The notes: generated by a model not told the origin, from the sequence alone. Counted from the first letter of the stretch, positions 1,605 through 51,988 are shown. The stretch: 64,000 bases of DNA from Bryobacteraceae bacterium (GCA_049511415.1 JBEKYC010000013.1:9176-73175); one strand, 5' to 3'. Translations and numbers: made by a program.

Positions 1605-3077
1605 ATGAGAACACTGTTTCTGAATCCTCCGTCCTTTGAAGGCTTCGATGGCGGCGCCAGTTCCCGCTGGCCGGCCACGCGGGAAATCGAGTCCTACTGG
1701 TATCCCGTTTGGCTGTGCTATCCGGCCGGCATGCTGCCTGATAGCAAGGTCGTCGATGCGCCGCCGCACAAGATCTCCATCGAGCAGACCGTGGCCATGG
1801 CCAATGACTTCGAACTCCTCGTCCTGTTCACCTCCACACCCGGATTTCATGTGGACGTGAAGATGGCTGAGATGATGAAGGACACAAACCCGAAGCTGAA
1901 GGTAGCCTTCGTCGGTCCGCCGGTCACGGTCGAGCCCGAAAAATCGCTGCGCACGTCGCCGGCTATCGACTTCGTGGTGCGCCGCGAGTTCGATTACCAG
2001 ATCGCCGACTACGCCAACGGCAAGCCGCTCGAAGAACTGCCCGGCGTCAGCTTCCGCAAGAACGGCCACATCGTCAATAACCCGGAGCGCGCGGCCATCG
2101 AGAATCTGGATGAGCTGCCCTGGGTCACCAAGGTTTATCAGCGCGATCTGGACGTGAAGCGGTATAACGTGCCGTTTCTGCTGAATCCGTACATCGCGCT
2201 CTACACGTCGCGCGGCTGCCCCGCCATGTGTACCTTCTGCCTGTGGCCGCAGACGCATTCCGGCCATCGCTGGCGCTTGCGCTCGGCGGACGATATCGCG
2301 CGCGAAGTGGCCTTCGCCAAAGAAGCATTCCCCTACGTCAAAGAGATTTTCTTCGACGACGACACGTTCAATTATCAGAAGGCGCGCACCATCGAGCTGT
2401 GCAAGAAGCTGAAGCCTCTGAACTTCACCTGGTCCTGTACCTCGCGCGTGACAACGGATTACGACACCCTGAAGGCCATGAAGGAGTCCGGCTGCCGCCT
2501 GTTGATCGTGGGCTATGAATCCGGCGAGCAGCAGATCCTGAAGAACATCAAGAAGGGCGCCACCGTGGATATGGCGCTGCGCTTCACCGATAACTGCAAG
2601 AAGCTGGGACTGTTGGTGCACGGCGATTTCATCATCGGGCTGCCCGGCGAGACGCGCGAAAGCATCCGCAAGACCATCGACTTCGCCAAACGCCTGGATA
2701 ACGAAACGATTCAGGTCTCCATCGCGCATCCTTATCCCGGCACTGAGTTTTACGATTACGTCAAGAACAACAACTTGATTACCATCGATGCCATGACGGA
2801 TGAGACCGGCCATCAGCTTCCTAACATCACTTACCCGGGGCTCGACCGTGGGGAGTTGGTGGATTGGGTGGAGCGCTTCTACGGCGAATATTATTTCCGC
2901 CCGCGCGTAATCTGGCGTGTAGTGCGCAAGGCCATTTTCGATTCCACCGAACGCAAGCGTCTATCAAAAGAGGCGCGCGAATATATGGCTTTGCGCTCCA
3001 AGCGCAAGAAATTCGTAGCCGCTGAACGCAAGGCCGACACCCGGCCCGCTCCGGCCACGGCCAGCTCCGGTGACTAG
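1605..3077 (+). CDS. hpnJ: hopanoid biosynthesis-associated B12-binding radical SAM protein HpnJ
   Basis: 490 aa. N-terminus 'MRTLFLNPPSFEGFDGGASSRWPATREIESYWYP' and radical SAM motif 'CPAMCTFC' match my memory of HpnJ (TIGR03471). hpnI lies nearby. Confidence 0.88.
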   Translation: MRTLFLNPPSFEGFDGGASSRWPATREIESYWYPVWLCYPAGMLPDSKVVDAPPHKISIEQTVAMANDFELLVLFTSTPGFHVDVKMAEMMKDTNPKLKVAFVGPPVTVEPEKSLRTSPAIDFVVRREFDYQIADYANGKPLEELPGVSFRKNGHIVNNPERAAIENLDELPWVTKVYQRDLDVKRYNVPFLLNPYIALYTSRGCPAMCTFCLWPQTHSGHRWRLRSADDIAREVAFAKEAFPYVKEIFFDDDTFNYQKARTIELCKKLKPLNFTWSCTSRVTTDYDTLKAMKESGCRLLIVGYESGEQQILKNIKKGATVDMALRFTDNCKKLGLLVHGDFIIGLPGETRESIRKTIDFAKRLDNETIQVSIAHPYPGTEFYDYVKNNNLITIDAMTDETGHQLPNITYPGLDRGELVDWVERFYGEYYFRPRVIWRVVRKAIFDSTERKRLSKEAREYMALRSKRKKFVAAERKADTRPAPATASSGD

Positions 3078-3083
3078 TTTCGA

Positions 3084-3494
3084 ATGAACGGACACGCGGC
3101 GCGCCTGCGTCTGAAAACCAGGTTCTTCACGGCGCTGACCGTGCTCAGCAGCGTGTGCGGGGATTTCTCCCTGACTTGCGGGATGCGGCAGGTCGGCCGC
3201 TTGGTCACACTTTCTCCGTTGGCCTATATGCGGGCCGTTTGCAACCCGCTGGTGGCGCTGGGCATTGCCTTGTTGATCCTGTGGCTGTTGCTGCATATGG
3301 CTTTGTTGAGTTGGGCTGACCTCAGCTATGTCCTACCGGTAACCTCGGTTGGCTATGTGCTGGCCGCCTTGGCGGGCCGGTTATTCCTGCACGAGAATAT
3401 TTCGGCCTGGCGCTGGGCCGGCATTCTCTTGATCGTTTCCGGCGTGGCCCTGGTGGCGCGCACGGGCTCGCATGCGTCGGGAACCGCCTCATGA
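3084..3494 (+). CDS. half-size DMT/EamA-like membrane protein (about 4 TM)
   Basis: 136 aa, hydrophobic, EamA-like N-terminus (..GDFSLTCGMRQVG..). Starts 6 nt after the hpnJ stop. Its stop overlaps the next start (ATGA at 3491-3494). Confidence 0.6.
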   Translation: MNGHAARLRLKTRFFTALTVLSSVCGDFSLTCGMRQVGRLVTLSPLAYMRAVCNPLVALGIALLILWLLLHMALLSWADLSYVLPVTSVGYVLAALAGRLFLHENISAWRWAGILLIVSGVALVARTGSHASGTAS

Positions 3495-3853
3495 GATGGC
3501 TGCTGGTAGCGGTGATCGCCTTGGCCACCACCATCGCGGACGTGGCGCAGGCGGCGGCCATGAAGCGTCACGGGGAGATTCGCGATTTCCGGCCGGGCGC
3601 CATCCGCCGCCTGCTGGCGTTGCTGGCCCGCAATAAGCTGATCATCGCATCGGTCGCCGCGATGGCCATCTCGTTCTTCGCTTTCATCGCGCTGCTCTCG
3701 ATCGCCGATCTCAGCTTCGCGGTGCCCGCCACCGCCGCCAGTTACGTGATCGAGACCATGCTCGCCAAATACCTGTTGAAGGAACCCGTAACCCCGGGGC
3801 GCTGGGTGGGCGCTTCCCTGGTGGCCTGCGGCGTCCTGTTGCTATCCCGGTGA
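3491..3853 (+). CDS. half-size DMT/EamA-like membrane protein (about 4 TM)
   Basis: 120 aa, 'IADVAQAAAMKRHGEI' EamA-like start, hydrophobic. Overlaps neighbours by ATGA (3491) and GTGA (3850). Confidence 0.6.
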   Translation: MRWLLVAVIALATTIADVAQAAAMKRHGEIRDFRPGAIRRLLALLARNKLIIASVAAMAISFFAFIALLSIADLSFAVPATAASYVIETMLAKYLLKEPVTPGRWVGASLVACGVLLLSR

Positions 3854-4953
3854 CCTGGCTCGCCCTGCCCGCTCTGGCCGCAACCGCTTACTGGCTGCTC
3901 GTGCTCATCGCCGCCCTGCGATGGCGCAAGTCATCTCCCATCAGCCAGGAGCGGCCGCCGATCACGATTCTCAAGCCCGTGCACGGACGCGATCCGCACT
4001 TCTACGCCGCCATCCGTTCGCATGCGCTGCAGGACTACCCGCGCTACGAAATCCTGTTTGGCATCGCCGATCCGGATGACCCTGCCGCGGACGATATCCG
4101 GCGCCTCATCGCCGAGTTTCCCGCCGGCGATATCCGCCTCATCGTGACGTCCACGATATTTCCCAACCGCAAAGTCGGCGTGTTGGCCGGCCTTGCCGCC
4201 CAAGCCCGCTATCCGCTGCTCCTGATCAACGATAGCGACATCAGCGTTCCCCCGAACTACTTGCGCCAGACCACTGCCGTGCTGCAACGCCCCAGCGTGG
4301 GTTTGGTCACCTGCCTCTATCGGGCGCAATCCGGCGCTGCGCCGGGCCAATGGGAAGCATTGGGCGTGGCCACCGAATTCGTGCCCAGCGTTCTGGTGGC
4401 GCGCATGCTCGGTTCCGTGGAATTCGCCCTGGGTTCCACCATGCTCCTGCGCGCGGCGGACTTGCAGCGCATCGGCGGATTCCCCGCAATTGGCGATTAC
4501 CTGGCCGACGACTATCAACTGGGAAGGCGCATCCACGATCTGGGCCTGCGCGTCGAGTTCGCTTCTCCGATTGTCGAAACCCATCTCGGCGGCCAGACCT
4601 GGGGCGCTGTCTGGCGTCATCAGTTACGCTGGTCGCGCAGCATTCGGGTGTCGCGGCCGGGAGGATACTTCGGCTATCTGGTCACGCACGCTACCTTCTG
4701 GTCACTGGTCGCCGCGCTGGGCGGCGCCTGGCCCGTCGCACTGGCCGTTCTGGCCGTCCGTTTGGCCGCCGGACTCCTGGTTTGCGCGCGCGTGCTCGAA
4801 GATCGCGATTCCATACGCCGCGCCTGGCGGATCCCCTTCCGCGACCTGTGCGGCTTCGCCCTTTGGCTCTCCGGCCTGTGCGGTAATACGGTCGAGTGGC
4901 GCGGGGCTAGGATAAAAATCAGGTCCGATGGTAAGATAGTATCGGATCTTTAA
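3850..4953 (+). CDS. hpnI: hopanoid-associated family-2 glycosyltransferase HpnI (ceramide glucosyltransferase-like)
   Basis: 367 aa. 'ITILKPVHG.DP..Y...S...QDYP..EILFG..DP.DPA', 'GLVTCLYR', 'LADDYQLG', 'HQLRWSRSIR' match the HpnI/GT21-like pattern. Co-located with hpnJ. Confidence 0.8.
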   Translation: MTWLALPALAATAYWLLVLIAALRWRKSSPISQERPPITILKPVHGRDPHFYAAIRSHALQDYPRYEILFGIADPDDPAADDIRRLIAEFPAGDIRLIVTSTIFPNRKVGVLAGLAAQARYPLLLINDSDISVPPNYLRQTTAVLQRPSVGLVTCLYRAQSGAAPGQWEALGVATEFVPSVLVARMLGSVEFALGSTMLLRAADLQRIGGFPAIGDYLADDYQLGRRIHDLGLRVEFASPIVETHLGGQTWGAVWRHQLRWSRSIRVSRPGGYFGYLVTHATFWSLVAALGGAWPVALAVLAVRLAAGLLVCARVLEDRDSIRRAWRIPFRDLCGFALWLSGLCGNTVEWRGARIKIRSDGKIVSDL

Positions 4954-4980
4954 CTACTGTTATTGATTAGGGAGGTCACC

Positions 4981-5649
4981 GTGATCGTGCTTCTCTTCGG
5001 TCCGCCCGGATGCGGCAAAGGCACCCAGGCAACCGCGATCGCTCGCCGTTTCCGCATCCCCGCGATCTCCACGGGTGAAATGTTCCGCGCCGAATGCCGC
5101 TCCGGAACGGAACTGGGCCGGCTGGCCTGCTCCATACTCAAATCCGGAGGCCTGGTCGGCGACGGCATTGTGAACCAGATCGTCGCGGGCAGAATTCAAC
5201 AGCCGGATTGCGAATTCGGATTTCTTCTGGATGGCTACCCGCGCACGCTCGAACAGGCTCATTTCCTGGATGCGCTGGTGACGAAACTGGGACTGCCCAG
5301 ACCCGTCGCCATTCACCTGGACGTGCCGCCGCAGGTGCTGGTCGCGCGCATTACCGCGCGCCGCCAGTGCGGGTATTGCGGGCGCATCTACAATATGCTG
5401 TCGCAGCCGCCCCGCAACGGCGAAATCTGCGACGAGGACGCGACGCCGCTCATCCGCCGCGACGACGACACCGAGGCCGTGATTCTGGCGCGCCTGCAGG
5501 CCTACCACGACGCCACCGGTCCGGTGGTCGACTATTATCGCGATGCCGGCTGCTTCCGCGTGGATGCCACCGGCACGCCGGAACAGATTTTTGCCCAGAT
5601 CGAGCCTCTGCTGGCGAATTGCCGCGAGCCCGTCCTACTATTGCGATAG
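4981..5649 (+). CDS. adk: adenylate kinase (Zn-lid type, CxxC...CxD)
   Basis: 'LLFGPPGCGKGTQA', 'LLDGYPRT', lid 'CGYCGRIYN...CDEDATPLIRRDDD'. GTG at 4981 sits 6 nt after the AGGGAGG Shine-Dalgarno, so the ORF-track TTG at 4963 is probably not the start. Confidence 0.95.
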   Translation: MIVLLFGPPGCGKGTQATAIARRFRIPAISTGEMFRAECRSGTELGRLACSILKSGGLVGDGIVNQIVAGRIQQPDCEFGFLLDGYPRTLEQAHFLDALVTKLGLPRPVAIHLDVPPQVLVARITARRQCGYCGRIYNMLSQPPRNGEICDEDATPLIRRDDDTEAVILARLQAYHDATGPVVDYYRDAGCFRVDATGTPEQIFAQIEPLLANCREPVLLLR

Positions 5650-6825
5650 CGAATAGCCTAACGACTCCGCGCCCGCCGCCACGGTCCGTGCCTGGCGCGC
5701 CGGGTCTTTCACCGGATTCGAGGCGGCCCGGTCCAGCCTGCGCCATAGCCCCACTCCGGGAATCACCGTTAGTAGTGTAGCCGCCCAAGGTACGATCAGG
5801 GATGTTAGAAACAGACCGGTGCCCCACCGCAGCGCTACTAGCCAGACCGCGACCGCCAGAAATCCAAAGCCCGCCGCCGCGCGGCGCTCCGGAGCCGACC
5901 ATGGAACTTCACCCTGCGTGATCGCGTACAGAGCCAGTGTGAATGGCACGGCCACGATCATATCGGCCAGGTAGTGGAAGACGAGCGTCTGCAACAGCAT
6001 GATCGCCAGCAACGCGCGCAGCGCCGTGCGCCACGGACGGCTGCATTTGCCGGCCGCCCAGAAGACCACCAGTGCCCAGGCCGTGTGCAGCGAGGGCATG
6101 CAGTTGCGGGCCACCGCCGCGGCGATGTAGGTAGGTGCCACCGGCACGGCGTTGAGAGCCGGCGGATGCCACGGAAAAGATCTGGCGAACAGCCAGTATG
6201 CTCCCACGGCCGGGAATACCACGTAACAAGCCGCTCCACAAACTCCCACCAACACAATAAACACAAACAGGCGCAGCGCCTTGGCGGAGCTTTGCCTCTC
6301 CGCAATGACGTAGGCCGTCATCAGAAATACCGGTAGGGCCTCGTAGAGCGTGCGCGAGAAGTCGCTGACCGCGGGCGTCACCGCAACCAGCCTGCCGGCC
6401 CAAAACGACGGCTGAAATCCCAGGCTGCCGTCGAACGCGTAGAGGTAATGATCGTAGGTCACGCCATGCGAACCGGAGTTCAGGAACAGTGCCGTGAGGA
6501 TCCCGAAAACGGGCGGAAAGGAAAGCTTGGCCAGCAGTTTCAGATCGGAGCGGCCGGTGAGGAACGGCATGACGAAAACCGCCGGGATGGCCCCCGCGCC
6601 GCAATAGGAAAGCGCTTCCAGAACGCGATGCCACAGGTTGCCGCTAAAGCCCAGATACGCGCCCAGGCACGCCGCCGCCGCGGTGGCTGCCAGCAGCACG
6701 CGAAACTTGGGCCGGTAGGCCAGAAACAGCACCAGACATGCCAGGAAATTCATGTTTGCGCTGGCGCCGATAGGCTCCGTCATGTCTTCAGTCCGTCGGC
6801 CGGCGCGCGCGCCGACCCGAGGCAT
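5638..6825 (-). CDS. PAP2-superfamily polytopic membrane protein (lipid phosphate phosphatase/phosphotransferase-like), paralog A
   Basis: 395 aa, multi-TM. 'NCMPSLHTAWA' and 'FHYLADMIVAVPF' give the His/His/Asp PAP2 triad. Aligns with 9986..11236. Start could be ATG 6783 instead of 6825. Confidence 0.7.
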   Translation of the reverse strand: MPRVGARAGRRTEDMTEPIGASANMNFLACLVLFLAYRPKFRVLLAATAAAACLGAYLGFSGNLWHRVLEALSYCGAGAIPAVFVMPFLTGRSDLKLLAKLSFPPVFGILTALFLNSGSHGVTYDHYLYAFDGSLGFQPSFWAGRLVAVTPAVSDFSRTLYEALPVFLMTAYVIAERQSSAKALRLFVFIVLVGVCGAACYVVFPAVGAYWLFARSFPWHPPALNAVPVAPTYIAAAVARNCMPSLHTAWALVVFWAAGKCSRPWRTALRALLAIMLLQTLVFHYLADMIVAVPFTLALYAITQGEVPWSAPERRAAAGFGFLAVAVWLVALRWGTGLFLTSLIVPWAATLLTVIPGVGLWRRLDRAASNPVKDPARQARTVAAGAESLGYSLSQ

Positions 6826-7009
6826 AGTAGCATGGCCGCCGGGGCCGGTTCATTATTAACGAAGGACAGTATACGGCGTGGAGTGTCAGGCCGCGATAAT
6901 GGTCGCTTGGATTGGGGCAAAAAACATTCCGCCGTAAGGTCTTGCCCCTGTTCCGTTCCCTCCGTTACCAAGCCGATCATAGAGCAGCGGGAAGTGTGGG
7001 AGTGAATTT

Positions 7010-8455
7010 GTGACACGCAGGCGCGCGATCGTTTACGGGGCTTTATTGACGGCGCTGCTGCTCGTCCCATGTTTCTGGCAACCGAGGATTGAAGCGGGCG
7101 ATTTGTCCAGTCACGTTTATAACGCCTGGCTGGCCCAGATCATCGCACGCGGCCAGGCGCCCGGCCTGGCGGTCGTGCGGCAAACCAACAATGTCCTGTT
7201 TGACCTGATGCTCTCCGGGTTGATGCGCGCCGTCGGCGCGGCGGCGGCCCAGCGTGCCGTGGTTGCTTGCGCCGTTCTGGTGTTTTTCTGGGGAGCTTTC
7301 GCTTTTATTTGGTCCAGCGCGCGGCCCCGGCGAGCCCCATGGCAACTGGTTCCGGGTCTCGTCATGCTCGCCTACGGATGGGTTTTTCGCATGGGCCTGT
7401 TCAATTTCTATATCGCTCTTGGCCTTTCGTTCGCAGCGTTGGCCCTGGCGCGGCAGAAATCACGGCGGGCTTGGGCCGGAGCGGGATGGCTTGCCGCCGT
7501 GGCCTACATTGCCCATCCTCTTCCAGTGATCTGGGCCGGGGGCCTCTATGTTTACGAGCGGATCGCCCGCACCATCGCACCGCGGCGGCGTTCCTGGCTG
7601 ATGGTCGGCATATTGGTGGCCTTTACGTTGGTGGGGCTTTGGATGGGCCTTTCCTTCAAAACCCGGCGCGGCTGGGATCAAATTGCGGCCACCACCGGAG
7701 CGGAGCAACTCTGGGTTTACGGCCTCCCGTATGTTGCCTTGTCGCTGGCATTTCTGGCCGTCGGAGCTATGGCTTTCTTTCGCGTCGTTACCGAGCGCGG
7801 CGCCTTGCGCACGGTTTTCGATATCCGATTTCAGCTTTGGGCTCTCACCGGGGCCGCTGTCGTGCTGCTGCCGGCCGCCGTCGTGCTGCCCGGCTACCGT
7901 TCCGGTCTCGACTTTGTCGCCGAACGTATGTCCCTGGGTGGAGCGGTTCTGATGTGCGGCCTGCTAATGACGGTCCGGTTACCCAAGCCTCTGGTTGTCG
8001 CTGTGACGGGGATGGCCGTGGTCTTCTTCGCGTTGTCCTATCGCGATGAGCGTGCCCTGAACCTCCTGGAGACCAAGATGGAGCGCGCCGTGGCGGTGCT
8101 GCCGCCAAACCAACGGGTGGTGAGCGCGCTGGAAGATCCCGAGAGCCGTGTGAAGAGCCTCGCCCATATGGTGGACCGCATCTGCGTCGGCCGATGTTTC
8201 AGCTATGCCAACTATGAGCCTTGCACCTGGCAGTTCCGCGTGCGAACTGAGCGCGCCAATCCCGTGGTCGTTTCCGAGTACCGCGATTCGTGGCGTATGC
8301 AGACCGGTAACTATGTGGTCAGGCCCGCGGATGTGCCGCTTTACAAAATTGACCTCTGTGATCCAGGCAAAGCGGATTTATGCGTAACACCGCTCGAAGC
8401 CGGCGATCAGTTACGCAACAGCGGCCTGCGAGTGGCTGCAGTACGGGGAGAATAG
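7010..8455 (+). CDS. polytopic membrane protein with Cys-containing C-terminal soluble domain, family unassigned, paralog A
   Basis: 481 aa. GTG start 7 nt after GGGAG. N-terminal 'CFWQPRIEAGDLSSHVYNAWLA' and C-terminal 'DRICVGRCFSYANYEP..FRVRTER..LYKIDLC' are shared with 11224..12699. Confidence 0.75.
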   Translation: MTRRRAIVYGALLTALLLVPCFWQPRIEAGDLSSHVYNAWLAQIIARGQAPGLAVVRQTNNVLFDLMLSGLMRAVGAAAAQRAVVACAVLVFFWGAFAFIWSSARPRRAPWQLVPGLVMLAYGWVFRMGLFNFYIALGLSFAALALARQKSRRAWAGAGWLAAVAYIAHPLPVIWAGGLYVYERIARTIAPRRRSWLMVGILVAFTLVGLWMGLSFKTRRGWDQIAATTGAEQLWVYGLPYVALSLAFLAVGAMAFFRVVTERGALRTVFDIRFQLWALTGAAVVLLPAAVVLPGYRSGLDFVAERMSLGGAVLMCGLLMTVRLPKPLVVAVTGMAVVFFALSYRDERALNLLETKMERAVAVLPPNQRVVSALEDPESRVKSLAHMVDRICVGRCFSYANYEPCTWQFRVRTERANPVVVSEYRDSWRMQTGNYVVRPADVPLYKIDLCDPGKADLCVTPLEAGDQLRNSGLRVAAVRGE

Positions 8456-8458
8456 GCC

Positions 8459-8563
8459 ATGACGCCTGCACAAGCAAAGGCCTTCGCCTGGCCGCGCCTG
8501 CTCGTGGACTTCCTCCTGTTGGCCGGCATGATCCTGGTGTCATCCAAACTGCTAACTCCCTGA
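8459..8563 (+). CDS. 34-aa single-pass micro-protein (not in the supplied ORF track)
   Basis: Hand translation gives ATG 8459 MTPAQAKAFAWPRLLVDFLLLAGMILVSSKLLTP TGA 8563. GGGGAG lies upstream and the ORF starts 3 nt after the upstream stop. 14/25 identity to the C-terminus of ORF 9770..9952. Confidence 0.45.
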   Translation: MTPAQAKAFAWPRLLVDFLLLAGMILVSSKLLTP

Positions 8564-8616
8564 TGGCTTGGCGTTAACCAAGGAGAGCGGACACTTCCGC
8601 CACTTGGACGCGGATA

Positions 8617-9765
8617 ATGTTTGCTGTGACAGACACTTCGCCGTCAGCGCGCTTGATCCTTGCTGCGGGCATCGCCGGCGCGTGTGTTTGTCTCTGGCTG
8701 GGCTTCAGCGTTCCCGAGCGCGGCGCGGACTTCAACCAGTTCTACGCGGCCGGAAAGCTCGCCGGTAGCGGCCATCTGTACGACTGGGATCGCATCCAGG
8801 CCATCGAACAACTAAACGGCGTGGCCATACCTTTCGGCCGCTTCCCGGTTTATGCGGTTCTGTTCAAGCCGTTGGCCTGGTTGCCTTTCGCATACGCGCG
8901 AGCATCTTGGCTGGCCATCAACCTGGCCGCGCTGCTGGCTTTCGCGGCCTTATGGCCAGTCACCCGCCGCGATCGCTTGTGGATGAGCCTGTGCTGGAGC
9001 TGTCCCGCGGCGCTGCTGCTTTCCACCGGCCAGGATACCGGATTGTTCCTGGCGCTCATAGCCCTGGGCATCCGGCTCCTGCAAGCCGGGCGTCAATTCG
9101 CCGCCGGCCTGGTTCTCTCGCTGTGCGCCGCCAAGATCCATCTGGCGTTAGGAATACCGGTCTTCCTGCTGGCCAACCGGCAATGGACGGCCCTGGCGGG
9201 TGGCGCTCTCGGCGGGCTAGTTCAGTTGGCCGTTTCGTTCGCGGCCGAAGGCGCAGGCTGGCCCACGAAACTGCTCCGCCTGGCTTCGATTTCCGAATTC
9301 AGCCCTGCCGTGCCGAAGATGCCCAACTTGTTTGGTCTGACACATTGGCTCCCGGGAGCCGGCATCATCGAAGCTTCCCTGGCTATTGCTGTCCTCGCGG
9401 CGGTGTGGCTGGTTTCCCGCCGTTCGACCCTGGCGGCGGGCGCTACGTCCGCAGTCATCGGCGGCCTGCTGGTCGGCCATCACGCCTACGTGTACGACGC
9501 CGTGCTCCTGCTGCCGGCGCTGGCGTTGGCCTGGGAAGTGCGCCTGCCCGATAGTCTGCGGTACTGGATCCTACTGCTCTCGACCCCGCTCCCGTATCTG
9601 GCTCTGATGCAGGATCATACGGCCGCTATCGCCCAGGCAAGCATCAGCTTGTTCTGCCTGGCGTTGCTGGCCGTGCTGGCGGCCGATTGCTGGCACATCC
9701 GCGCCGCTCGATTGTGTAATACACGGCCGCGCGAAGTCTTCGCGGCTCAAGCCCAAGGAGGATAG
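8617..9765 (+). CDS. DUF2029/GT87-like polytopic glycosyltransferase
   Basis: 382 aa, about 10 TM. 'ERGADFNQFYAAGKLAGSGHLYDWD' resembles the conserved N-terminal loop of GT87 (PimE-like mannosyltransferase) family proteins. Confidence 0.6.
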   Translation: MFAVTDTSPSARLILAAGIAGACVCLWLGFSVPERGADFNQFYAAGKLAGSGHLYDWDRIQAIEQLNGVAIPFGRFPVYAVLFKPLAWLPFAYARASWLAINLAALLAFAALWPVTRRDRLWMSLCWSCPAALLLSTGQDTGLFLALIALGIRLLQAGRQFAAGLVLSLCAAKIHLALGIPVFLLANRQWTALAGGALGGLVQLAVSFAAEGAGWPTKLLRLASISEFSPAVPKMPNLFGLTHWLPGAGIIEASLAIAVLAAVWLVSRRSTLAAGATSAVIGGLLVGHHAYVYDAVLLLPALALAWEVRLPDSLRYWILLLSTPLPYLALMQDHTAAIAQASISLFCLALLAVLAADCWHIRAARLCNTRPREVFAAQAQGG

Positions 9766-9769
9766 AAAA

Positions 9770-9952
9770 GTGACTAACGAAAGCACCGTAGATAGTCCGG
9801 TCGCCTTTGCGGCTTCCGACGTACAAGAATTGGCATCATCCGCAGCCTGGGTGTCGCGCCTGAAGGGCATTCCCTGGACCCGCGTGCTGGTCGACGCGCT
9901 CCTGGTGGCGAGCGTTTTGCTGGCCTCTTCCAGCCTGTTGACAGTGCGATAA
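9770..9952 (+). CDS. 60-aa single-pass small membrane protein, homolog of micro-ORF 8459..8563
   Basis: GTG start 8 nt after AAGGAGGA and 4 nt after the upstream stop. C-terminal 'PWTRVLVDALLVASVLLASSSLLTVR' parallels 'AWPRLLVDFLLLAGMILVSSKLLTP'. Confidence 0.5.
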   Translation: MTNESTVDSPVAFAASDVQELASSAAWVSRLKGIPWTRVLVDALLVASVLLASSSLLTVR

Positions 9953-9985
9953 GCGCGCTATAAAGCTATCCTAAGCGGCGACCGA

Positions 9986-11236
9986 TTGGAAGGCATGGCG
10001 GCCGTCCGGTTCCTCGCCAGGCTACTCGTATTTGCCGTTGCGCTGGCGCTGCTGGCCGGCCTGATGCTCTGCTTTCGCATCGCCTCGTACACCTATCTAG
10101 CTTCATCTCTTGCCGGTTCCCTCGTAATTTATCTTTGGAGCCGCCCCGGTCCGCGCTGGCTGGCCGCGACCGCATTTTCAGGCGCAGCCTGGGCCGGCGT
10201 GTACGCCGCCGCGCTCGGCGGTCCTATCCTGGCTGCCGCTCCTGCCTTTCTGGGCTTGGGCAGCTTGAGCAGCCTGGTCGGCGCGGCTTTGTGGGGCGAT
10301 CCGGCGCGGCGCGGCGCCAGATTGGATACCTGCCTGCTGGCCTGCATGTTTCCCTTGTTTCTGGTGATCTCCAGCTTCTCCCTGGCGGTTACGAGCGCCT
10401 CCCATGCCCGGACCTACGATCTGTTCTTGTACGCGTTTGATGCGCCATTGGGACCCGCCAGCTTCTTAGTCGGACGCTTCGTCACCGCTCATCCAATCCT
10501 GCAGCGACTGTGTTGGATGACTTACGAAGGCCTGCCGCTGGCTATGGCCGTCGCCTGTGCGATCGAACCGCGCCGCGCGGCCCGGCAGGCTCCCAGCATC
10601 ATGACGGCGTTCGTGGTTGCCGCCGCCGGCGGCTTTGTCCTGTACAATTTTTATCCCGCGGTGGGGCCGATTCACATCTTCGGCCCGTGGTTTCCGTACT
10701 CGCCGCCGCCTCCGGGTTCGCCTCCTTTCCGGCTGGCGGCGGCCGGCACGGCGCCCCGCAATGCCATGCCGTCCGTCCATGTCGCCATGGCCTTGCTGAT
10801 CCTCTGGCACTCGCGCGCGGCGCCGCGCATCTGGCGCTGGATCGCCGCGGCCGTCCTGGCGCTGACAGTGCTGGCCACCCTGGGATTCGGCGAGCACTAT
10901 CTGGTGGATTTGTTCGTGGCCGTACCGTTCGCCCTGCTGGCGCAAGCCCTGGCGGCGCCCGCTTTGGCAGATGCCAACCGGATTCGTTTCGCCGCCGCCG
11001 GAACCGGCGCTCCACTGGTGATCGGATGGCTCGCCTACTTGCGGCAGCCGTGGCCTCCGTTGTACGGGCACCCAACCGTTGCATGGACCTTCTTGCTGGC
11101 CACTGTGCTGCTGGCTCTGTGGATGGAACGCCGGCTCGATCGCGCCACGGCGCTCGTTAACCAAGGACAACACAATCGCGGACAACACAACCGAGCCACC
11201 GCGTCTCACCAGATAATGGAAGCTTGCCGGCCCTAG
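9986..11236 (+). CDS. PAP2-superfamily polytopic membrane protein, paralog B
   Basis: 416 aa. 'RNAMPSVHVAMA' and 'EHYLVDLFVAVPF'. 'YDLFLYAFDAPLG' aligns with 'YDHYLYAFDGSLG' of paralog A. The tail has an in-frame GQHNR GQHNR duplication. Confidence 0.7.
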   Translation: MEGMAAVRFLARLLVFAVALALLAGLMLCFRIASYTYLASSLAGSLVIYLWSRPGPRWLAATAFSGAAWAGVYAAALGGPILAAAPAFLGLGSLSSLVGAALWGDPARRGARLDTCLLACMFPLFLVISSFSLAVTSASHARTYDLFLYAFDAPLGPASFLVGRFVTAHPILQRLCWMTYEGLPLAMAVACAIEPRRAARQAPSIMTAFVVAAAGGFVLYNFYPAVGPIHIFGPWFPYSPPPPGSPPFRLAAAGTAPRNAMPSVHVAMALLILWHSRAAPRIWRWIAAAVLALTVLATLGFGEHYLVDLFVAVPFALLAQALAAPALADANRIRFAAAGTGAPLVIGWLAYLRQPWPPLYGHPTVAWTFLLATVLLALWMERRLDRATALVNQGQHNRGQHNRATASHQIMEACRP

Positions 11237-12699
11237 CGCGCATCCGCCACCGCCTGATTCCCTATCTCGCAATCTCCCTGGCCGTGCTGACGCCTTGCTT
11301 CTGGCAAAAGCGCATTCAGGCGGGCGATCTCTCGAGTCACATCTATAACGCCTGGCTGGCGGGATTGATCGAGCAGGGGCGAGCCGAAGGCCTGACCCTC
11401 GTTCCGCAGACCCATAATGTGCTGTTCGACCTGCTGCTCAGCGCACTGCTGCGCGCCTTCGGACCCGGACCAGCACAGCGCATCGCTGTATCGGCCGCCG
11501 TGCTGGTTTTCTTCTGGGGAGCATTCGCGTTTGTCTGGAGAATTTCGCGGCGAGGTCCGGCCGAGGCTCCCTGGGAATGGACGCCCTGCCTGGCCATGCT
11601 GGCCTATGGTTGGGTCTTTCACATGGGACTGTTCAACTTCTATATCTCGCTCGGACTGGCCCTTTGGTCTCTGGCCGCCGCGCCCTGGAGGACTCGTCGC
11701 GGCTTGTTGACAGCCGCGCTGCTGTGGATTCCAGCCTATGTGGCGCATCTGTTGCCCGTCGTGTGGGCGGTTGGCGTGACCGCCTATCTGCGTTTGGCCC
11801 GAGCTATCCCTCCCCGGTATCGCGCCTGGCTCGCCGGCGCCGCGGTGGCGGCCATGGCCCTTTCCGGTCTGCTGCTGAAGCTGCTATTCCACGCCCAATG
11901 GACTTCCGGCCCAAACCTGTCTTTCACCGGCGCGGATCAGTTCTGGGTCTTCGGAGAGCGCTACCTGCCGCTGGCCCTGGCCGTCCTTTTGCTATGGGTT
12001 TTCGGGTTTCAGGCCGTGCTCCGGAGGCGTGGACCGCGCCGTACCTTGCTGGACGCGCGCTTGCATCTTTGCATTCTGAACGCGGCCTGTATTCAGTTAT
12101 TGCCCAGCGTGATCGTGCTGCCCGCCAGCGGGCAGGCCGAAAGTCTGCTCATCGGACGGATGTCGCTCGCCGGCGCCGTGCTGTACGCCGCACTGGCGGC
12201 TACCGCCCGCCAGCCCAAATGGTTGTCCGCCGGCATGTCGGCCGCCGCCGCCGTCTTCTTCATCTTCATTTATCAGGACGCCGGGGCTTTGAACCGCGTG
12301 GAAGACCGCATGGAACATGCCGTGGCGCAACTGCCGCCCGGACAGCGCGTCGTCAGCGCTTTGATGGATACGAACCTGCGCGAGTTTTCCCTGCTGCACA
12401 TAGTCGATCGCGTCTGCGTGGGGCGCTGTTTCAGCTATGCGAACTATGAACCGTCGGTGGGCCAGTTTCGCGTGCGCGCCGAGCGTCCCAACCATATCGT
12501 GACGGCCGACTTTCGCGAGTCCTGGGCCATGCAGGCTGGAGGATACGTCGTGCAGCCGCGCGATCTGCCCCTGTACCGCATCGACCTGTGTAGCGGCGCG
12601 GAATTGTGCGCGTCTCCGGTCGCCGCCGGTGTCGCCCTGCAGCGCCACTGGCTGCGCGTCACGCCCGATTTGTGGAAAGCGCAAAGGGGAGAAGAATAA
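11224..12699 (+). CDS. polytopic membrane protein with Cys-containing C-terminal domain, paralog B
   Basis: 491 aa. 'CFWQKRIQAGDLSSHIYNAWLA', 'DRVCVGRCFSYANYEP..FRVRAER..LYRIDLC'. The TTG start overlaps the upstream PAP2 gene by 13 nt and is uncertain. Confidence 0.75.
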   Translation: MPALARIRHRLIPYLAISLAVLTPCFWQKRIQAGDLSSHIYNAWLAGLIEQGRAEGLTLVPQTHNVLFDLLLSALLRAFGPGPAQRIAVSAAVLVFFWGAFAFVWRISRRGPAEAPWEWTPCLAMLAYGWVFHMGLFNFYISLGLALWSLAAAPWRTRRGLLTAALLWIPAYVAHLLPVVWAVGVTAYLRLARAIPPRYRAWLAGAAVAAMALSGLLLKLLFHAQWTSGPNLSFTGADQFWVFGERYLPLALAVLLLWVFGFQAVLRRRGPRRTLLDARLHLCILNAACIQLLPSVIVLPASGQAESLLIGRMSLAGAVLYAALAATARQPKWLSAGMSAAAAVFFIFIYQDAGALNRVEDRMEHAVAQLPPGQRVVSALMDTNLREFSLLHIVDRVCVGRCFSYANYEPSVGQFRVRAERPNHIVTADFRESWAMQAGGYVVQPRDLPLYRIDLCSGAELCASPVAAGVALQRHWLRVTPDLWKAQRGEE

Positions 12700-12740
12700 G
12701 CCGCGTGTGGAGAGATGTTACAATTCATTTTCCGGCGGCG

Positions 12741-13340
12741 ATGCGAGCTTTCAAGCATGGTTTGATGTTCGTGCTGATCATGCAACTGGCAGGTTGCACG
12801 TTGCACGACAAGAAACAAGCCTCGGCGCCGCCGCCTCCCAAGCCCGCGGCGGTCGCGCCCCCCGCTACGGATCCCCAGCCCCTCTCTTCGCCGCAGACGT
12901 CCGTCACGTTGCCCAGTCCGCAGCCGGTAAACCCAGACGCTATTCCGCCCGTGAAAACGGAAGCCACGCCCGCGCCGGCGGAAAAGCCGGAAGTTCAGGC
13001 CGTGCCGCAGCGTTCTACACGCCACGCCAGCAGTCCACAGAGGTCGGAAGCCGAGCCAGAGGCGGAAACCCCGGCGGCCCCTGCCGAAGAACAACCCGCA
13101 TTTCAGCCCATCCTGACTCCCGAGGAACAGAAGCGTATCGCCGGCCTGATCGAGTCCCGCAAGAAGGAAATCGGCGCACTGCTCGTTAAGGCCAAACACA
13201 CCACGGCGGATCAGACCAAAACGCAGCGCATCAATTCTTTCCTCAGTCAATCGGATGAAGCCCGGCAGCGCGGCGACTATGCGCAGGCCGAATCGCTCTC
13301 GGAGCGCGCCGTGATCCTGGCGCGGGAACTGGGTGAATAG
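12741..13340 (+). CDS. lipoprotein with Pro/Ala-rich linker
   Basis: ATG 12741 gives MRAFKHGLMFVLIMQLAGC (lipobox LAGC). This is followed by a low-complexity PPPPKPAAVAPP linker and a helical C-terminus. In frame with listed ORF 12606..13340. Confidence 0.7.
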   Translation: MRAFKHGLMFVLIMQLAGCTLHDKKQASAPPPPKPAAVAPPATDPQPLSSPQTSVTLPSPQPVNPDAIPPVKTEATPAPAEKPEVQAVPQRSTRHASSPQRSEAEPEAETPAAPAEEQPAFQPILTPEEQKRIAGLIESRKKEIGALLVKAKHTTADQTKTQRINSFLSQSDEARQRGDYAQAESLSERAVILARELGE

Positions 13341-14412
13341 CGAGTTCTCGGCGCGCCGCCGTCTGGTCAGCGACGGGCTCGAGAATCGCCAGCTCGATGC
13401 CATGCTGGTTTCCTCGCCCGCCAGCGTCCGCTACCTGACCGGATTCACCGGCAGCAATGGCGTGCTGTTGGTCATGCCCGGTGAAGCCGTCTTCTTTACC
13501 GATCCGCGATACGCCATCCAATCGGGCCAGGAAGTCTCATGCCGGACTCAAGTGTGTAGGGGTCCGATTCTGCCCGCGGTGGCCGCGCTGGCCGGCAAAA
13601 AGCGCGTGCGCCGCATGGGCTTCGAACGCGCGCATCTGAGCTTTGACGCCTTCGATACCCTGCGCGCCAAAATGCCCCTGAGCGCCTCGCTCGAGCCGGT
13701 GGTGGGCTGGATGGAAGCCCTTCGCATGCTGAAATCGCCCGCCGAAATCGCGCGCATCCGCAAGTCCGTGGACGTCAATTCGCAGGCCTTCGAGAAAGCC
13801 GCGCGCAGGCTCCGGCCCGGCACGCGCGAGCAGGATCTGGCCGCCGAAATCGAGCATGCCATGCGCCGGTTGGGAGCGGAAAAGCCGTCGTTTGAAACCA
13901 TCGTGGCCTCGGGCGCCCGCTCTGCCTTGCCCCACGCCCATCCCACCGGTGCGCGCCTCAAATTGGGGCAGTTGCTCCTCATCGACATGGGCGCGTTCGT
14001 GGATGGTTACGCCAGCGATATGACGCGCATGCTCTTCCTGGGCCGCCCCGGCGCCCGTGTCAAGCGGCTCTATCGCGCCGTGCTGGAAGCCCAACTGGCC
14101 GCCATCGATGCCGTCCGTCCGGGCGTGACCACATCGCACGTGGACCGCCAGGCTCGCCACGTCTTGAAGAAATTCGGCCTCGACCGCGCCTTCGTGCATT
14201 CCACCGGGCACGGCTTGGGGCTGGAGATCCACGAATTGCCGCGCATCGGCCGGAAGGACAAAACACTCCTCGCCGCCGGCATGGCCATCACCATCGAGCC
14301 CGGCGCTTACCTCGAAGGCTTCGGTGGCGTGCGCATCGAGGACACCGTGGTGGTCACCGCCGGCGGCTGCGAAGTGCTCACGCCCACCAGCAAAGAGTTA
14401 CGGGTTCTATAA
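13333..14412 (+). CDS. Xaa-Pro aminopeptidase/dipeptidase, peptidase family M24B
   Basis: 'DMGAFVDGYASDMTR', 'HSTGHGLGLEIHE', 'ITIEPGAY..GGVRIEDTVVVT' are canonical M24 metal-ligand motifs. Confidence 0.9.
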   Translation: MNSEFSARRRLVSDGLENRQLDAMLVSSPASVRYLTGFTGSNGVLLVMPGEAVFFTDPRYAIQSGQEVSCRTQVCRGPILPAVAALAGKKRVRRMGFERAHLSFDAFDTLRAKMPLSASLEPVVGWMEALRMLKSPAEIARIRKSVDVNSQAFEKAARRLRPGTREQDLAAEIEHAMRRLGAEKPSFETIVASGARSALPHAHPTGARLKLGQLLLIDMGAFVDGYASDMTRMLFLGRPGARVKRLYRAVLEAQLAAIDAVRPGVTTSHVDRQARHVLKKFGLDRAFVHSTGHGLGLEIHELPRIGRKDKTLLAAGMAITIEPGAYLEGFGGVRIEDTVVVTAGGCEVLTPTSKELRVL

Positions 14413-17683: not shown

Positions 17684-17689
17684 GATGGT

Positions 17690-21842: not shown

Positions 21843-22204
21843 AGGTTCTCCTTTGCCCGGCGTTGAATTTGCGCCTGGCTCTCTGCTCTTCTGACGGGTT
21901 GTGATTCCCCGTACCACGCTGGAGTGACCGGGAGGAACGAAACGTTTCACATCGCGGCTGCGATGCCGCTAACTATGGTTGCGGCGGGCACAGTCATTCC
22001 GGCCTGCCAGCGCATCTCCGGGCCGCACTGCAAGATAAGCCGATGCATAAAAATTCGAACACGAGCCGTAACGAATTCTCCACTCGATTCACTCTGCAAA
22101 CGAGAAGGCCGGGACACAGAGCAGTTGTGGAGGCACGCGTGACCGGATCTTGTCCAGAATGATTCCTAAGTACGCCAGATTCTGACGAAAGGAAAGGTTG
22201 AATT

Positions 22205-39879: not shown

Positions 39880-40028
39880 ACGACCTCCTTTCAATTTGTG
39901 CCAATCGTCCGCATGACGGGCTGAAAGAAGGTTCGTTGAACTGCAGAAACTTCAATGGTGGGAAAGTCCCTTTCCGCGGACTGGCAGCGCCCATGTGCGC
40001 TTTCCGCATAATAACAAATCGAGGTCGT

Positions 40029-51959: not shown

Positions 51960-51988
51960 TCCCTGTATTGAGCTGATCCCTGTATTGA
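51946..51988. repeat. 17-nt tandem repeat CTGTATTGAGCTGATCC x2.5 spanning the GH94 stop codon
   Basis: Read directly: units at 51946-51962 and 51963-51979, partial unit 51980-51988. Confidence 0.9.

What the first reader, a model, noticed from the sequence alone, without database searches (positions are those of the whole stretch)
5638..12699. Duplicated membrane locus: two PAP2-type transferase paralogs, two unassigned polytopic paralogs and a GT87-like gene, next to hopanoid genes
Two paralog pairs are present. The PAP2-type proteins (5638..6825 minus; 9986..11236 plus) align over more than 200 aa (YD..LYAFD..LG, N.MPS.H, HYL.D..VAVPF). Both keep the His/His/Asp triad used by lipid phosphate phosphatases and by head-group transferases of the sphingomyelin/IPC-synthase type. 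The 481- and 491-aa polytopic proteins share CFWQ.RI.AGDLSSH.YNAWLA at the N-terminus. They also share a four-Cys soluble C-terminal domain (DR.CVGRCFSYANYEP..FRVR.ER..LY.IDLC). I cannot place these two proteins in any characterised family. A DUF2029/GT87-like glycosyltransferase sits between the pairs. The whole set lies under 1 kb from hpnJ/hpnI. This looks like an uncharacterised envelope lipid or glycolipid head-group modification system, but that is a hypothesis.
Basis: partly seen in the sequence, partly recalled or inferred. Interest (0 to 1): 0.7.

Follow-up and report, generated by a model that had tools for sequence, protein, structure and literature searches.

The report
Membrane glycosyltransferase and PAP2 gene island
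A peat-soil acidobacterium carries a cluster of membrane enzymes, among them a previously unrecognised family with an ArnT-like sugar-transferase fold, that most likely decorates a cell-surface molecule from the periplasmic side. In related genomes this cluster travels with Tad pilus genes, not with the hopanoid genes it sits beside here.

Summary
Two PAP2_3 paralogs (36% identity, E 1e-29), two 481/491-aa polytopic paralogs (52%, E 7e-144) and a GT87 gene lie at the stated coordinates, 685 bp from hpnI with adenylate kinase between. Three independent peat/wetland assemblies show the same junction.

New here: the "unassigned" proteins (family B) match no Pfam, NCBIfam or PDB sequence. A confident AlphaFold model (pLDDT 87) matches only GT-C glycosyltransferases: ArnT (probability 1.00, TM 0.50), AftD and EmbB. 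Their topology is N-in, C-out, with an invariant Asp in the first periplasmic loop.

Synteny is conserved, but not with hopanoid genes, which adjoin the locus only in this organism (0 of 85 other loci). In 52 of 63 Bryobacterales species representatives the B gene follows tadZABC, an α/α-toroid protein and DUF362. PAP2_3, GT87, a second B and an MBL-fold gene form a variable cassette downstream in the clade nearest the window.

Best reading: a periplasm-facing glycoconjugate-modification island with three GT-C-fold transferases and two Aur1/SMS-type His-His-Asp enzymes. The acceptor is unknown; a Tad-pilus-linked target is the leading guess. It is a new sequence family and a new variant of a known kind, of moderate interest.

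The parts
5638..6825 (-). A1: PAP2_3-type polytopic membrane enzyme (395 aa as the longest ORF, 381 aa in other gene calls). It runs divergent from B1, and its 3' end overlaps adk by 12 bp.
   Evidence: Pfam PAP2_3 E 5e-14, 53 bits. 36% identical to A2. Keeps S/H...H-Y-x-x-D. An orthologue (phmmer 525 bits) lies next to B in L001.
7010..8455 (+). B1: 481-aa member of an undescribed family with a predicted GT-C (ArnT-like) fold. It has about 11 TM helices, is N-in, and has a periplasmic Cys-rich C-terminal domain. It is the orthologue of the Tad-linked B gene of relatives.
   Evidence: No Pfam, NCBIfam or PDB sequence hit. AF2 pLDDT 87, pTM 0.89. Foldseek hits ArnT 5ezm (probability 1.00, TMq 0.50) and AftD (0.96). 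The tree places it with the Tad-linked B of L025. Metatranscriptome contigs cover 7582..7920.
8459..8563 (+). Micro-protein 1: 34-aa tail-anchored membrane peptide immediately after B1 (…W.R..VD..L…SS..L motif).
   Evidence: Sequence. Called as a gene in three independent assemblies. The same motif follows B in 23 of 91 B genes, including distant clades.
8617..9765 (+). C: GT87-family (PimE-like) GT-C mannosyltransferase homologue, 382 aa.
   Evidence: Pfam GT87 E 5e-19, 69 bits. Weak NCBIfam mannosyltransferase hit. The family profile weakly hits a solved 415-aa mannosyltransferase, 9dm5 (E 0.013). Invariant D38 in the first loop. RNA contigs cover 8651..9143.
9770..9952 (+). Micro-protein 2 (s59): 60-aa tail-anchored membrane peptide, a paralogue of micro-protein 1.
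   Evidence: phmmer family of 16 members, always in the cassette after B or GT87. The C-terminal TM segment is conserved.
9986..11236 (+). A2: PAP2_3-type polytopic membrane enzyme (416 aa, or 413 aa in other calls). Its stop overlaps the start of B2.
   Evidence: Pfam PAP2_3 E 1e-21, with a weak PAP2_C hit. AF2 pLDDT 93.5. Foldseek best hits are IPC synthase 9vj4, A. aeolicus LpxE 6ebu, Aur1-Kei1 and SMSr. The same overlapping PAP-B arrangement occurs in L010 and L095.
11224..12699 (+). B2: 491-aa second copy of family B. It belongs to a distinct subclade of 'second copies'.
   Evidence: 52% identical to B1. Groups with the second B genes of L025, L010, L022, L005 and L021.
3084..3853 (+). 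Possible accessory, membership uncertain: two overlapping 4-TM EamA/SMR-type genes resembling ArnE/ArnF lipid-linked-sugar flippase subunits. They sit between hpnJ and hpnI.
   Evidence: Weak NCBIfam ArnE/ArnF hits (E 6e-6 and 6e-5, far below the cut-offs) and Pfam EamA. A homologous pair lies next to a B paralogue and a ManC-like gene in L043.

Best explanation
The region is a periplasm-facing island for modifying a surface glycoconjugate. It is not a hopanoid system.

Components and proposed action:
- B1, B2 and the GT87 protein are integral-membrane glycosyltransferases of the GT-C fold. B1 and B2 found a sequence family not described before.
- Enzymes of this fold take sugars from polyprenyl-phosphate-linked donors at the outer face of the inner membrane. 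They use an acidic residue in the first periplasmic loop (here invariant D31 in B, D38 in GT87).
- The Cys-rich C-terminal domain of B would bind the acceptor. The small tail-anchored peptides are probably B-associated subunits.
- A1 and A2 place a His-His-Asp triad at the same face. They lack the Lys/Arg phosphate-binding motifs of hydrolytic PAP2 enzymes.
- A1 and A2 therefore most likely transfer a phospho-alcohol head group from a membrane phospholipid to the acceptor, as Aur1, Ipt1 and sphingomyelin synthase do. Less likely, they remove a phosphate.

Evolutionary context:
- The island is a derived copy of a module that, in most Bryobacterales, follows a Tad pilus operon in the order tadZABC, toroid protein, DUF362, B.
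- PAP2_3, GT87, a second B and an MBL-fold gene form a variable downstream cassette.
- The acceptor is therefore most plausibly a Tad-pilus-associated or other cell-surface molecule that varies between lineages.

Shown: paralogy, family membership of A and C, fold of B, and the synteny statistics. Inferred: donor, chemistry, topology and acceptor.
For: - Fold of B: AF2 pLDDT 87, pTM 0.89. The only credible Foldseek hits are the GT-C enzymes ArnT, AftD and EmbB.
- Topology of B: the Arg/Lys clusters fall on alternate loops, and four conserved Cys lie in the C-terminal domain.
- C is GT87.
- A1 and A2 are PAP2_3 with an invariant S-x-H...H-Y-x-x-D. The His-to-His spacing is 39 residues, as in Aur1 H255/H294/D298 (PMC13133130). 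They give no hit to canonical PAP2. The best Foldseek E-value is an IPC synthase.
- Operon-like layout: B1, peptide, GT87, peptide, A2 and B2 lie on one strand, and A2 and B2 overlap.
- Neighbours of B: 52 of 63 species-level loci have tadA upstream and 48 of 63 have the toroid gene.
- PAP2_3 and GT87 occur next to B in different orders in L001, L003, L006, L008, L010, L014, L017, L019 and L093-L108.
- In L087 two PAP2_3 genes are embedded between the toroid and DUF362-B genes.
- B paralogues away from tad lie next to PMT_2 GT-C and MBL-fold genes.
- GT2 genes occur in some cassettes.
- More distant PAP2_3 genes lie next to GT87 and tad genes even without B: L141, L159, L115, L161.
- Low-level metatranscriptome coverage of B1, GT87 and the s59/A2 start.
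Against: - No sequence-level link ties B to any GT-C family: hhalign probability is 0.4 against GT87 and 0.6 against PMT_2. The fold match is modest (TM 0.50, E 3e-3).
- The window itself has no tad, toroid or DUF362 gene in 64 kb. The Tad link is by orthology only.
- The solved Caulobacter Tad pilus shows no glycan density (PMC10710030).
- No donor-synthesis gene (a polyprenyl-phosphate sugar synthase) is clearly part of the window's locus.
- Transferase versus phosphatase chemistry for A1 and A2 cannot be decided from sequence. A. aeolicus LpxE is an equally good structural match.
- Conserved gene order within a single order could partly reflect shared descent rather than function.
Confidence: 0.55

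Rival explanations
1. Lipid A or LPS-core remodelling. The two PAP2 enzymes act as 1- and 4'-phosphatases (like LpxE and LpxF). The two B enzymes then add a sugar at each freed position, as ArnT, RgtD or FlmK do, and GT87 extends the structure.
For: The two PAP2 plus two ArnT-fold pairs fit the two phosphate positions of lipid A. A. aeolicus LpxE is a top structural match (probability 0.98, TMt 0.59) and ArnT is the top match for B. An ArnE/ArnF-like pair lies 3 kb upstream. The known pathway logic comes from the Rhizobium, Francisella and Aquifex lipid A literature (own knowledge).
Against: A1 and A2 are PAP2_3 and lack the K-x6-R-P and S-R phosphate-binding motifs of LpxE/LpxF-type hydrolases. 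Most relatives have B without any PAP2_3: only 9 of 64 have one downstream. No lpx or LPS-core genes are conserved nearby. The dominant neighbours are tad genes.
Confidence: 0.13
2. Synthesis of a free phosphoglycolipid of the IPC/M(IP)2C or PIM type. The PAP2_3 enzymes put phospho-head groups on a lipid and later on a sugar, as Aur1 and then Ipt1 do. The GT-C enzymes add sugars in between, as PimE does.
For: PAP2_3 is the Aur1/Ipt1 family. An IPC synthase is the best Foldseek E-value. GT87 is the PimE family, which acts on phosphatidylinositol mannosides (own knowledge). One distant PAP2_3 gene lies two genes from a CDP-alcohol phosphatidyltransferase (L086).
Against: No inositol-phosphate synthase, serine palmitoyltransferase or PI synthase lies in the window or in the conserved neighbourhoods. 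This reading does not explain the Tad linkage.
Confidence: 0.12
3. Hopanoid head-group modification. The GT-C and PAP2_3 enzymes would decorate bacteriohopanepolyol glucosamine or cyclitol ether made by HpnI and HpnJ next door.
For: hpnJ and hpnI lie within 1 kb to 5 kb on the same contig in three assemblies. A possible flippase pair sits between them.
Against: hpnI and hpnJ are absent from all 85 other B loci and from the 80 PAP2_3 loci. adk separates the two sets and A1 converges on it. The closest Tad-linked relative (L025) shares the downstream flank but has tad genes upstream.
Confidence: 0.05
4. Oligosaccharyl transfer with carrier recycling. B would be an en-bloc transferase using undecaprenyl-diphosphate-linked glycans. 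The PAP2 enzymes would simply recycle the released undecaprenyl diphosphate.
For: Periplasmic PAP2 enzymes (PgpB, LpxT type) do recycle Und-PP (own knowledge). PgpB appears among the weak fold matches.
Against: A1 and A2 lack the hydrolase C1 motif and the C3 Arg. B resembles ArnT, AftD and Emb, which use monophosphate donors, rather than PglB or STT3. Three divergent PAP2_3 subtypes diversifying inside one cassette argue for substrate-specific roles, not housekeeping recycling.
Confidence: 0.08

Closest known systems
ArnT (GT83; PDB 5EZM) and the mycobacterial arabinosyltransferases AftD and EmbB
   Same: They are the best and only credible structural matches to B1. They share polytopic N-in topology, a catalytic acidic residue in the first periplasmic loop followed by juxtamembrane helices, and a periplasmic C-terminal domain. 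They use lipid-phosphate-linked sugar donors.
   Different: No detectable sequence or profile similarity. B is shorter (about 11 TM helices plus a 120-aa four-Cys domain). The acceptor is unknown. B comes with a conserved micro-protein and with Tad, toroid and DUF362 neighbours instead of arn or cell-wall genes.
PimE and other GT87 polyprenol-phosphate-mannose mannosyltransferases
   Same: Gene C is a Pfam GT87 member with the invariant first-loop Asp.
   Different: It is only a distant relative of the mycobacterial enzymes (NCBIfam 32 bits against a 413-bit cut-off). No phosphatidylinositol-mannoside pathway is evident.
Aur1/Ipt1 inositolphosphotransferases and sphingomyelin synthases (PAP2_3 / LPT head-group transferases)
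   Same: Pfam family, the His-His-Asp triad and the 39-residue His-to-His spacing (PMC13133130). The active site is predicted on the non-cytoplasmic face. Yeast alternates PAP2_3 and glycosyl transfers (Aur1, then mannosylation, then Ipt1; own knowledge).
   Different: Bacterial origin. About four extra N-terminal and two extra C-terminal helices. Substrates are unknown, and no Kei1-like partner has been identified.
Lipid A remodelling sets (LpxE/LpxF phosphatases with ArnT, RgtD or FlmK)
   Same: A PAP2-superfamily enzyme paired with an ArnT-fold transferase, acting at the periplasmic face.
   Different: The PAP2 subfamily differs and lacks the hydrolase motifs. There is no LPS gene context. 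Most B genes have no PAP2 partner.
Pilin glycosylation by a GT-C enzyme encoded beside pilus genes (TfpW of Pseudomonas aeruginosa group IV pilins); three-component periplasmic glycosylation systems (GtrABC; GT136, PMC11127046)
   Same: A GT-C enzyme with a C-terminal acceptor-binding domain, encoded next to the genes for its target structure. The cassettes are variable. A small flippase is sometimes nearby (L043).
   Different: The linkage here is to Tad (Flp) pili, for which no such enzyme is known. No synthase or flippase is firmly assigned. There are additional PAP2_3 enzymes.

Membership tests
GT-C glycosyltransferase superfamily (for B1/B2) | Polytopic membrane core whose first extracytoplasmic loop carries a conserved acidic residue followed by juxtamembrane helices | tested here: met
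   AF2 elements: TM1 at 4-22, loop with helix 32-46, second amphipathic helix 62-75. D31 and D65 are invariant in 34 sequences. Positive-inside charge pattern (sequence).
GT-C glycosyltransferase superfamily (for B1/B2) | Three-dimensional similarity to solved GT-C enzymes | tested here: met
   Foldseek against PDB: ArnT probability 1.00, E 3e-3, TMq 0.50; AftD probability 0.96; EmbB ranks lower. All other hits have probability 0.10 or less. The match is modest in strength.
GT-C glycosyltransferase superfamily (for B1/B2) | Sequence membership in a described GT-C family (Pfam PMT, PMT_2, GT87 and others, or NCBIfam) | tested here: not met
   No Pfam or NCBIfam hit for B1, B2 or 34 relatives. 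No PDB sequence hit. hhalign probability 0.4 against GT87 and 0.6 against PMT_2.
GT-C glycosyltransferase superfamily (for B1/B2) | Transfer of sugar from a lipid-phosphate-linked donor | not testable with these tools
   Needs a biochemical assay.
GT87 (gene C) | Pfam GT87 domain above the gathering score, with a conserved first-loop Asp | tested here: met
   69.4 bits against 25. D38 is invariant in 14 sequences.
PAP2_3 / Aur1-SMS-type head-group transferases (A1, A2) | PAP2_3 domain above the gathering score, with the C2 His and C3 His-x3-Asp triad | tested here: met
   53 and 78 bits against 27. S263, H265, H304, Y305 and D308 are invariant in 35 sequences, including A1.
PAP2_3 / Aur1-SMS-type head-group transferases (A1, A2) | Phospho-head-group transfer rather than hydrolysis | not testable with these tools
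   Inferred only, from the missing hydrolase motifs and the family assignment.
Canonical PAP2 lipid phosphatases (LpxE, LpxF, PgpB) | C1 motif K-x6-R-P and the C3 Ser-Arg that bind phosphate; PF01569 membership | tested here: not met
   No invariant Lys and no Arg at the C3 -6 position in the family alignment. No PF01569 hit at E up to 1. The core fold is shared (LpxE TMt 0.59).
Hopanoid (hpn) biosynthesis-associated genes | Recurrent co-location with hpn genes across genomes | tested here: not met
   HpnI and HpnJ homologues were found only in the window, among 86 B-containing sources. None was found in 80 PAP2_3 loci.
Tad-locus accessory module (tadZABC - toroid - DUF362 - B) | B gene immediately downstream of DUF362, the toroid gene and the tad genes | tested here: not met
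   Met in 52 of 63 species-level loci but not in the window, which has no tad, toroid or DUF362 gene. B1 is nonetheless the orthologue of the Tad-linked copy.
Three-component periplasmic glycosylation systems (synthase + flippase + GT-C) | A dedicated polyprenyl-phosphate sugar synthase and a small flippase encoded with the GT-C gene | tested here: inconclusive
   An ArnE/ArnF-like pair lies at 3084..3853, inside the hpn pair. GT2 genes occur in the L011 and L012 cassettes. L043 has an SMR pair plus ManC. No synthase is assigned in the window.

The most novel reading that the evidence does not exclude
The module is a dedicated maturation system for Tad (Flp) pili or a Tad-dependent surface structure. 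A new GT-C family (B, with its micro-protein subunit) and GT87 or PMT_2 enzymes would glycosylate the target. Aur1-type PAP2_3 enzymes would add phospho-head groups taken from membrane phospholipids. That would be a 'phospho-form plus glycan' decoration analogous to Neisseria pilin modification, but made with entirely different enzymes. It would also be the first protein-directed use of PAP2_3 transferases.
Probability: 0.15. Interest if true: 0.8.

Novelty: new variant of a known kind. Interest (0 to 1): 0.45.

Why it matters
Family B holds about 1,170 clusters at 50% identity, almost all from soil and peat Bryobacterales. It would add a sequence-orphan family to the GT-C superfamily, whose members build key surface structures: LPS modifications, arabinogalactan and protein glycans.

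Its tight linkage to Tad pilus operons, together with diversifying PAP2_3 and GT87 genes, points to an unstudied surface-decoration pathway. The organisms concerned are among the most abundant bacterial groups in acidic soils and peat. It also offers a concrete candidate for post-translational modification of Tad pili, which is so far undocumented.

For annotation, the result shows that the hopanoid neighbourhood here is incidental and should not be propagated as a functional link.

Tried and rejected
- Sequence searches of B1 and of the B profile against PDB, Pfam and NCBIfam found nothing meaningful.
- Profile-profile comparison of B with GT87 and PMT_2 alignments built from neighbouring genes found no relationship.
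- The PAP2_3 single sequence and profile against PDB sequences gave no hits.
- The exhaustive representative search listed only strong full-length relatives. It therefore could not be used to walk to a named family.
- Rfam, tRNA, tandem-repeat and promoter/terminator scans of the region showed nothing informative. Base composition is uniform, so there is no sign of recent horizontal transfer.
- Literature searches for PAP2_3/PF14378 in bacteria and for Tad-associated GT-C enzymes found no description of this module.
- The minus-strand ORF 12444..13403 was rejected as a gene, in favour of the conserved plus-strand lipoprotein at 12741..13340.
- The hopanoid-system reading was rejected on synteny.
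- A chimeric-assembly explanation for the hpn junction was rejected.

Full report
**1. What is there**

The stretch 5638..12699 holds five long ORFs at exactly the coordinates given (translations).
- A1 (5638..6825, minus strand) and A2 (9986..11236, plus strand) are 36% identical over 284 residues, E 1e-29.
- B1 (7010..8455) and B2 (11224..12699) are 52% identical over their full length, E 7e-144.
- Pfam places A1 and A2 in PAP2_3 (53 and 78 bits; cut-off 27). It places the gene between the pairs (C, 8617..9765) in GT87 (69 bits; cut-off 25).
- B1 and B2 hit nothing in Pfam or NCBIfam.

- HpnJ lies at 1605..3077 (TIGR03471, 798 bits) and HpnI at 3850..4953 (TIGR03472, 354 bits).
- Two small overlapping EamA/SMR-type genes sit between hpnJ and hpnI.
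- Adenylate kinase (4963..5649) separates hpnI from A1.

- One is a 34-aa ORF right after B1 (8459..8563). The other is a 60-aa ORF after C (9770..9952).
- Both end in the same transmembrane motif, W.R..VD..L...SS..L.
- B1, peptide, C, peptide, A2 and B2 all lie on the plus strand with short gaps. A2 overlaps B2. A1 is divergent from B1.
- The real gene between B2 and the M24 peptidase is a Pro-rich lipoprotein on the plus strand (12741..13340). It is conserved in a relative.

The sequence comes from peat and wetland metagenomes.
- The junction hpnI-adk-A1-B1 is present in three independent assemblies, so it is not an assembly artefact.
- Metatranscriptome contigs cover parts of B1, C and the peptide/A2 start at low depth.

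**2. What the unassigned proteins are**

Family B is sizeable but narrowly distributed.
- It has 1,469 hits in the 90%-clustered database, all unnamed.
- It has 1,166 clusters at 50% identity with E up to 1e-3.
- It has 218 hits among 185,579 species-representative genomes. Nearly all of the best 80 are labelled Bryobacterales, Solibacteraceae or Terriglobia.

An AlphaFold2 model of B1, built on a 34-sequence alignment, is confident (pLDDT 87, pTM 0.89).
- Against the PDB, the only credible matches are GT-C glycosyltransferases: ArnT (probability 1.00, E 3e-3, TMq 0.50), AftD (0.96) and, lower down, EmbB.
- Everything else is noise.

The secondary-structure map and charge distribution fit a GT-C layout.
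- An Arg-rich N-terminus lies inside the cell.
- TM1 is followed by a long first periplasmic loop that carries the invariant AGD31LSSH.YNAW motif and a juxtamembrane helix.
- Arg/Lys clusters fall on alternate loops.
- About eleven TM helices are followed by a 120-residue periplasmic domain with four conserved Cys.

No sequence method connects B to any described family.
- PDB phmmer and profile searches found nothing. Pfam on 34 members found nothing.
- hhalign against GT87 and PMT_2 alignments gave probabilities of 0.4 and 0.6.
- I therefore treat B as a sequence-orphan family with a GT-C fold. It works like a GT-C enzyme, but membership of any existing family is not met.

**3. The PAP2 proteins**

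The family alignment (35 sequences, including A1 and A2) has these invariant residues: D145, D152 (YD..LY.FD), PS.H265 and H304-Y-x-x-D308.
- There is no conserved Lys-x6-Arg-Pro. There is no Ser-Arg six residues before the second His.
- Canonical PAP2 (PF01569) is not hit, while PAP2_C, the sphingomyelin-synthase family C-terminus, is weakly hit.
- The His-His-Asp triad and its 39-residue His-to-His spacing equal those of yeast Aur1 (H255, H294, D298; PMC13133130).

The A2 model is very confident (pLDDT 93.5).
- Its best Foldseek E-value is an inositol-phosphorylceramide synthase. A. aeolicus LpxE, Aur1-Kei1, SMSr and PgpB follow, all weak.
- Walking the predicted helices from an N-in start puts all three motifs on the periplasmic side. 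This is an inference.
- A1 and A2 thus look more like head-group phosphotransferases than hydrolases, but sequence cannot settle the point.

**4. Synteny**

I tabulated neighbours in 85 loci that carry a B gene, plus the window.
- HpnI and HpnJ occur only in the window.
- The dominant arrangement is tadZ-tadA-tadB-tadC, a 32-aa peptide, a roughly 300-aa α/α-toroid protein (weak squalene-cyclase-repeat hits), DUF362 and then B. DUF362 carries a Tat/lipoprotein signal, and its stop overlaps the start of B by 4 bp.
- Among species representatives with enough upstream sequence, 52 of 63 have tadA and 48 of 63 have the toroid gene.

A neighbour-joining tree separates the two window copies.
- B1 groups with the Tad-linked copy of its closest Tad-linked relative, L025. 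L025 shares the window's downstream lipoprotein and M24 genes but has tad genes upstream.
- B2 groups with the 'second copies' found in a few genomes.

In the clade nearest the window, the space between B and a convergent MBL-fold gene is a variable cassette.
- It contains the small peptide, zero to two PAP2_3 genes of at least three subtypes, zero to three GT87 genes, sometimes a second B, and sometimes a GT2.
- Downstream of B, PAP2_3 is present in 9 of 64 loci and GT87 in 7 of 64.

From the PAP2_3 side, I scanned 80 metagenome loci.
- Relatives at 41% identity or more to A2 are almost always next to B and the Tad module.
- More distant relatives are mostly alone. Several of those still sit beside GT87 and tad genes without B (L141, L159, L115, L161).

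Other contexts point the same way.
- In a more distant Acidobacteriia genome, two PAP2_3 genes are inserted between the toroid gene and DUF362-B (L087).
- B paralogues away from tad sit with PMT_2-type GT-C and MBL-fold genes.
- One B paralogue lies beside an ArnE/ArnF-like pair and a ManC-like gene (L043).

Shuffled order with retained partners argues for functional coupling of B, PAP2_3, GT87 and the Tad-adjacent module. It argues against any coupling to hopanoid genes.

**5. Mechanism proposed**

The locus encodes three GT-C-fold enzymes, two periplasm-facing His-His-Asp enzymes and two micro-proteins.
- The simplest model is stepwise decoration of one surface acceptor at the outer face of the inner membrane.
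- Sugars would come from polyprenyl-phosphate donors (B1, B2, C). Phospho-alcohol groups would come from phospholipids, or phosphates would be removed (A1, A2).
- The diversifying cassette resembles glycan-variation loci.
- The acceptor is not identified. The conserved Tad linkage makes a pilus-associated target the leading candidate.
- Against that candidate, the window lacks tad genes, and the Caulobacter Tad pilus shows no modification (PMC10710030).
- Lipid A remodelling, an IPC/PIM-like glycolipid, carrier recycling and hopanoid decoration are kept as rivals with lower weights.

**6. Comparison and novelty**

The components resemble ArnT/AftD/Emb (fold), PimE (family), Aur1/Ipt1/SMS (family) and periplasmic three-component glycosylation systems (PMC11127046).
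- Nothing in the literature searches describes family B or a Tad-adjacent GT-C/PAP2_3 module.
- It is a new sequence family within a known fold class, in a new combination. I rate it a new variant of a known kind.
- Interest is moderate. The finding is solid and the Tad link is intriguing, but the function remains inferred.

Noticed in passing
window 3084..3494 and 3491..3853 (+): Two overlapping 4-TM EamA/SMR-type genes with weak ArnE/ArnF flippase similarity sit between hpnJ and hpnI, where hpnK might be expected. They could flip a hopanoid-sugar or polyprenyl-sugar intermediate. A homologous pair lies beside a B paralogue and a ManC-like gene in L043.
   Followed up: partly
L001 6852..6950; L003 5928..6026; L005 4377..4475: A highly conserved 32-aa membrane peptide (MNGT.MQV.IWVAAGVVLLLLLQRRRRRKV.R) follows tadC in Bryobacterales Tad loci. 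It is not annotated with any family.
   Followed up: no
L004 7033..8004; L087 9386..10357: The DUF362 proteins of the Tad-linked module carry a twin-arginine plus lipobox signal (TRRELL...LAPAC). They are therefore probably cofactor-bearing periplasmic lipoproteins. The preceding ~300-aa protein has squalene-cyclase/prenyltransferase-type α/α-toroid repeats.
   Followed up: partly
window 12741..13340 (+): A Pro-rich lipoprotein (lipobox LAGC) is conserved with L025 upstream of the M24 peptidase. The longer minus-strand ORF 12444..13403 over the same DNA is probably spurious.
   Followed up: partly
L089 2232..9442: Four tandem PAP2_3 paralogues lie in one Acidobacteriota contig, near a GT2 and an acyltransferase_3 gene. 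This is a further sign that this PAP2_3 subfamily expands by local duplication.
   Followed up: no
window 16424..19402 (-) and 19539..21950 (-): A DUF1501/DUF1800 gene pair is followed by an 803-aa protein with a Big_3_5 Ig-like domain. These are common but uncharacterised Acidobacteria/Planctomycetes genes, unrelated to the finding.
   Followed up: no
window 38362..39894 (-): A 510-aa protein with multiple ankyrin repeats, which is unusual but not rare in soil bacteria.
   Followed up: no
window 51946..51988: The only tandem repeat in the window: a perfect 17-bp unit in 2.5 copies, between two long ORFs.
   Followed up: no
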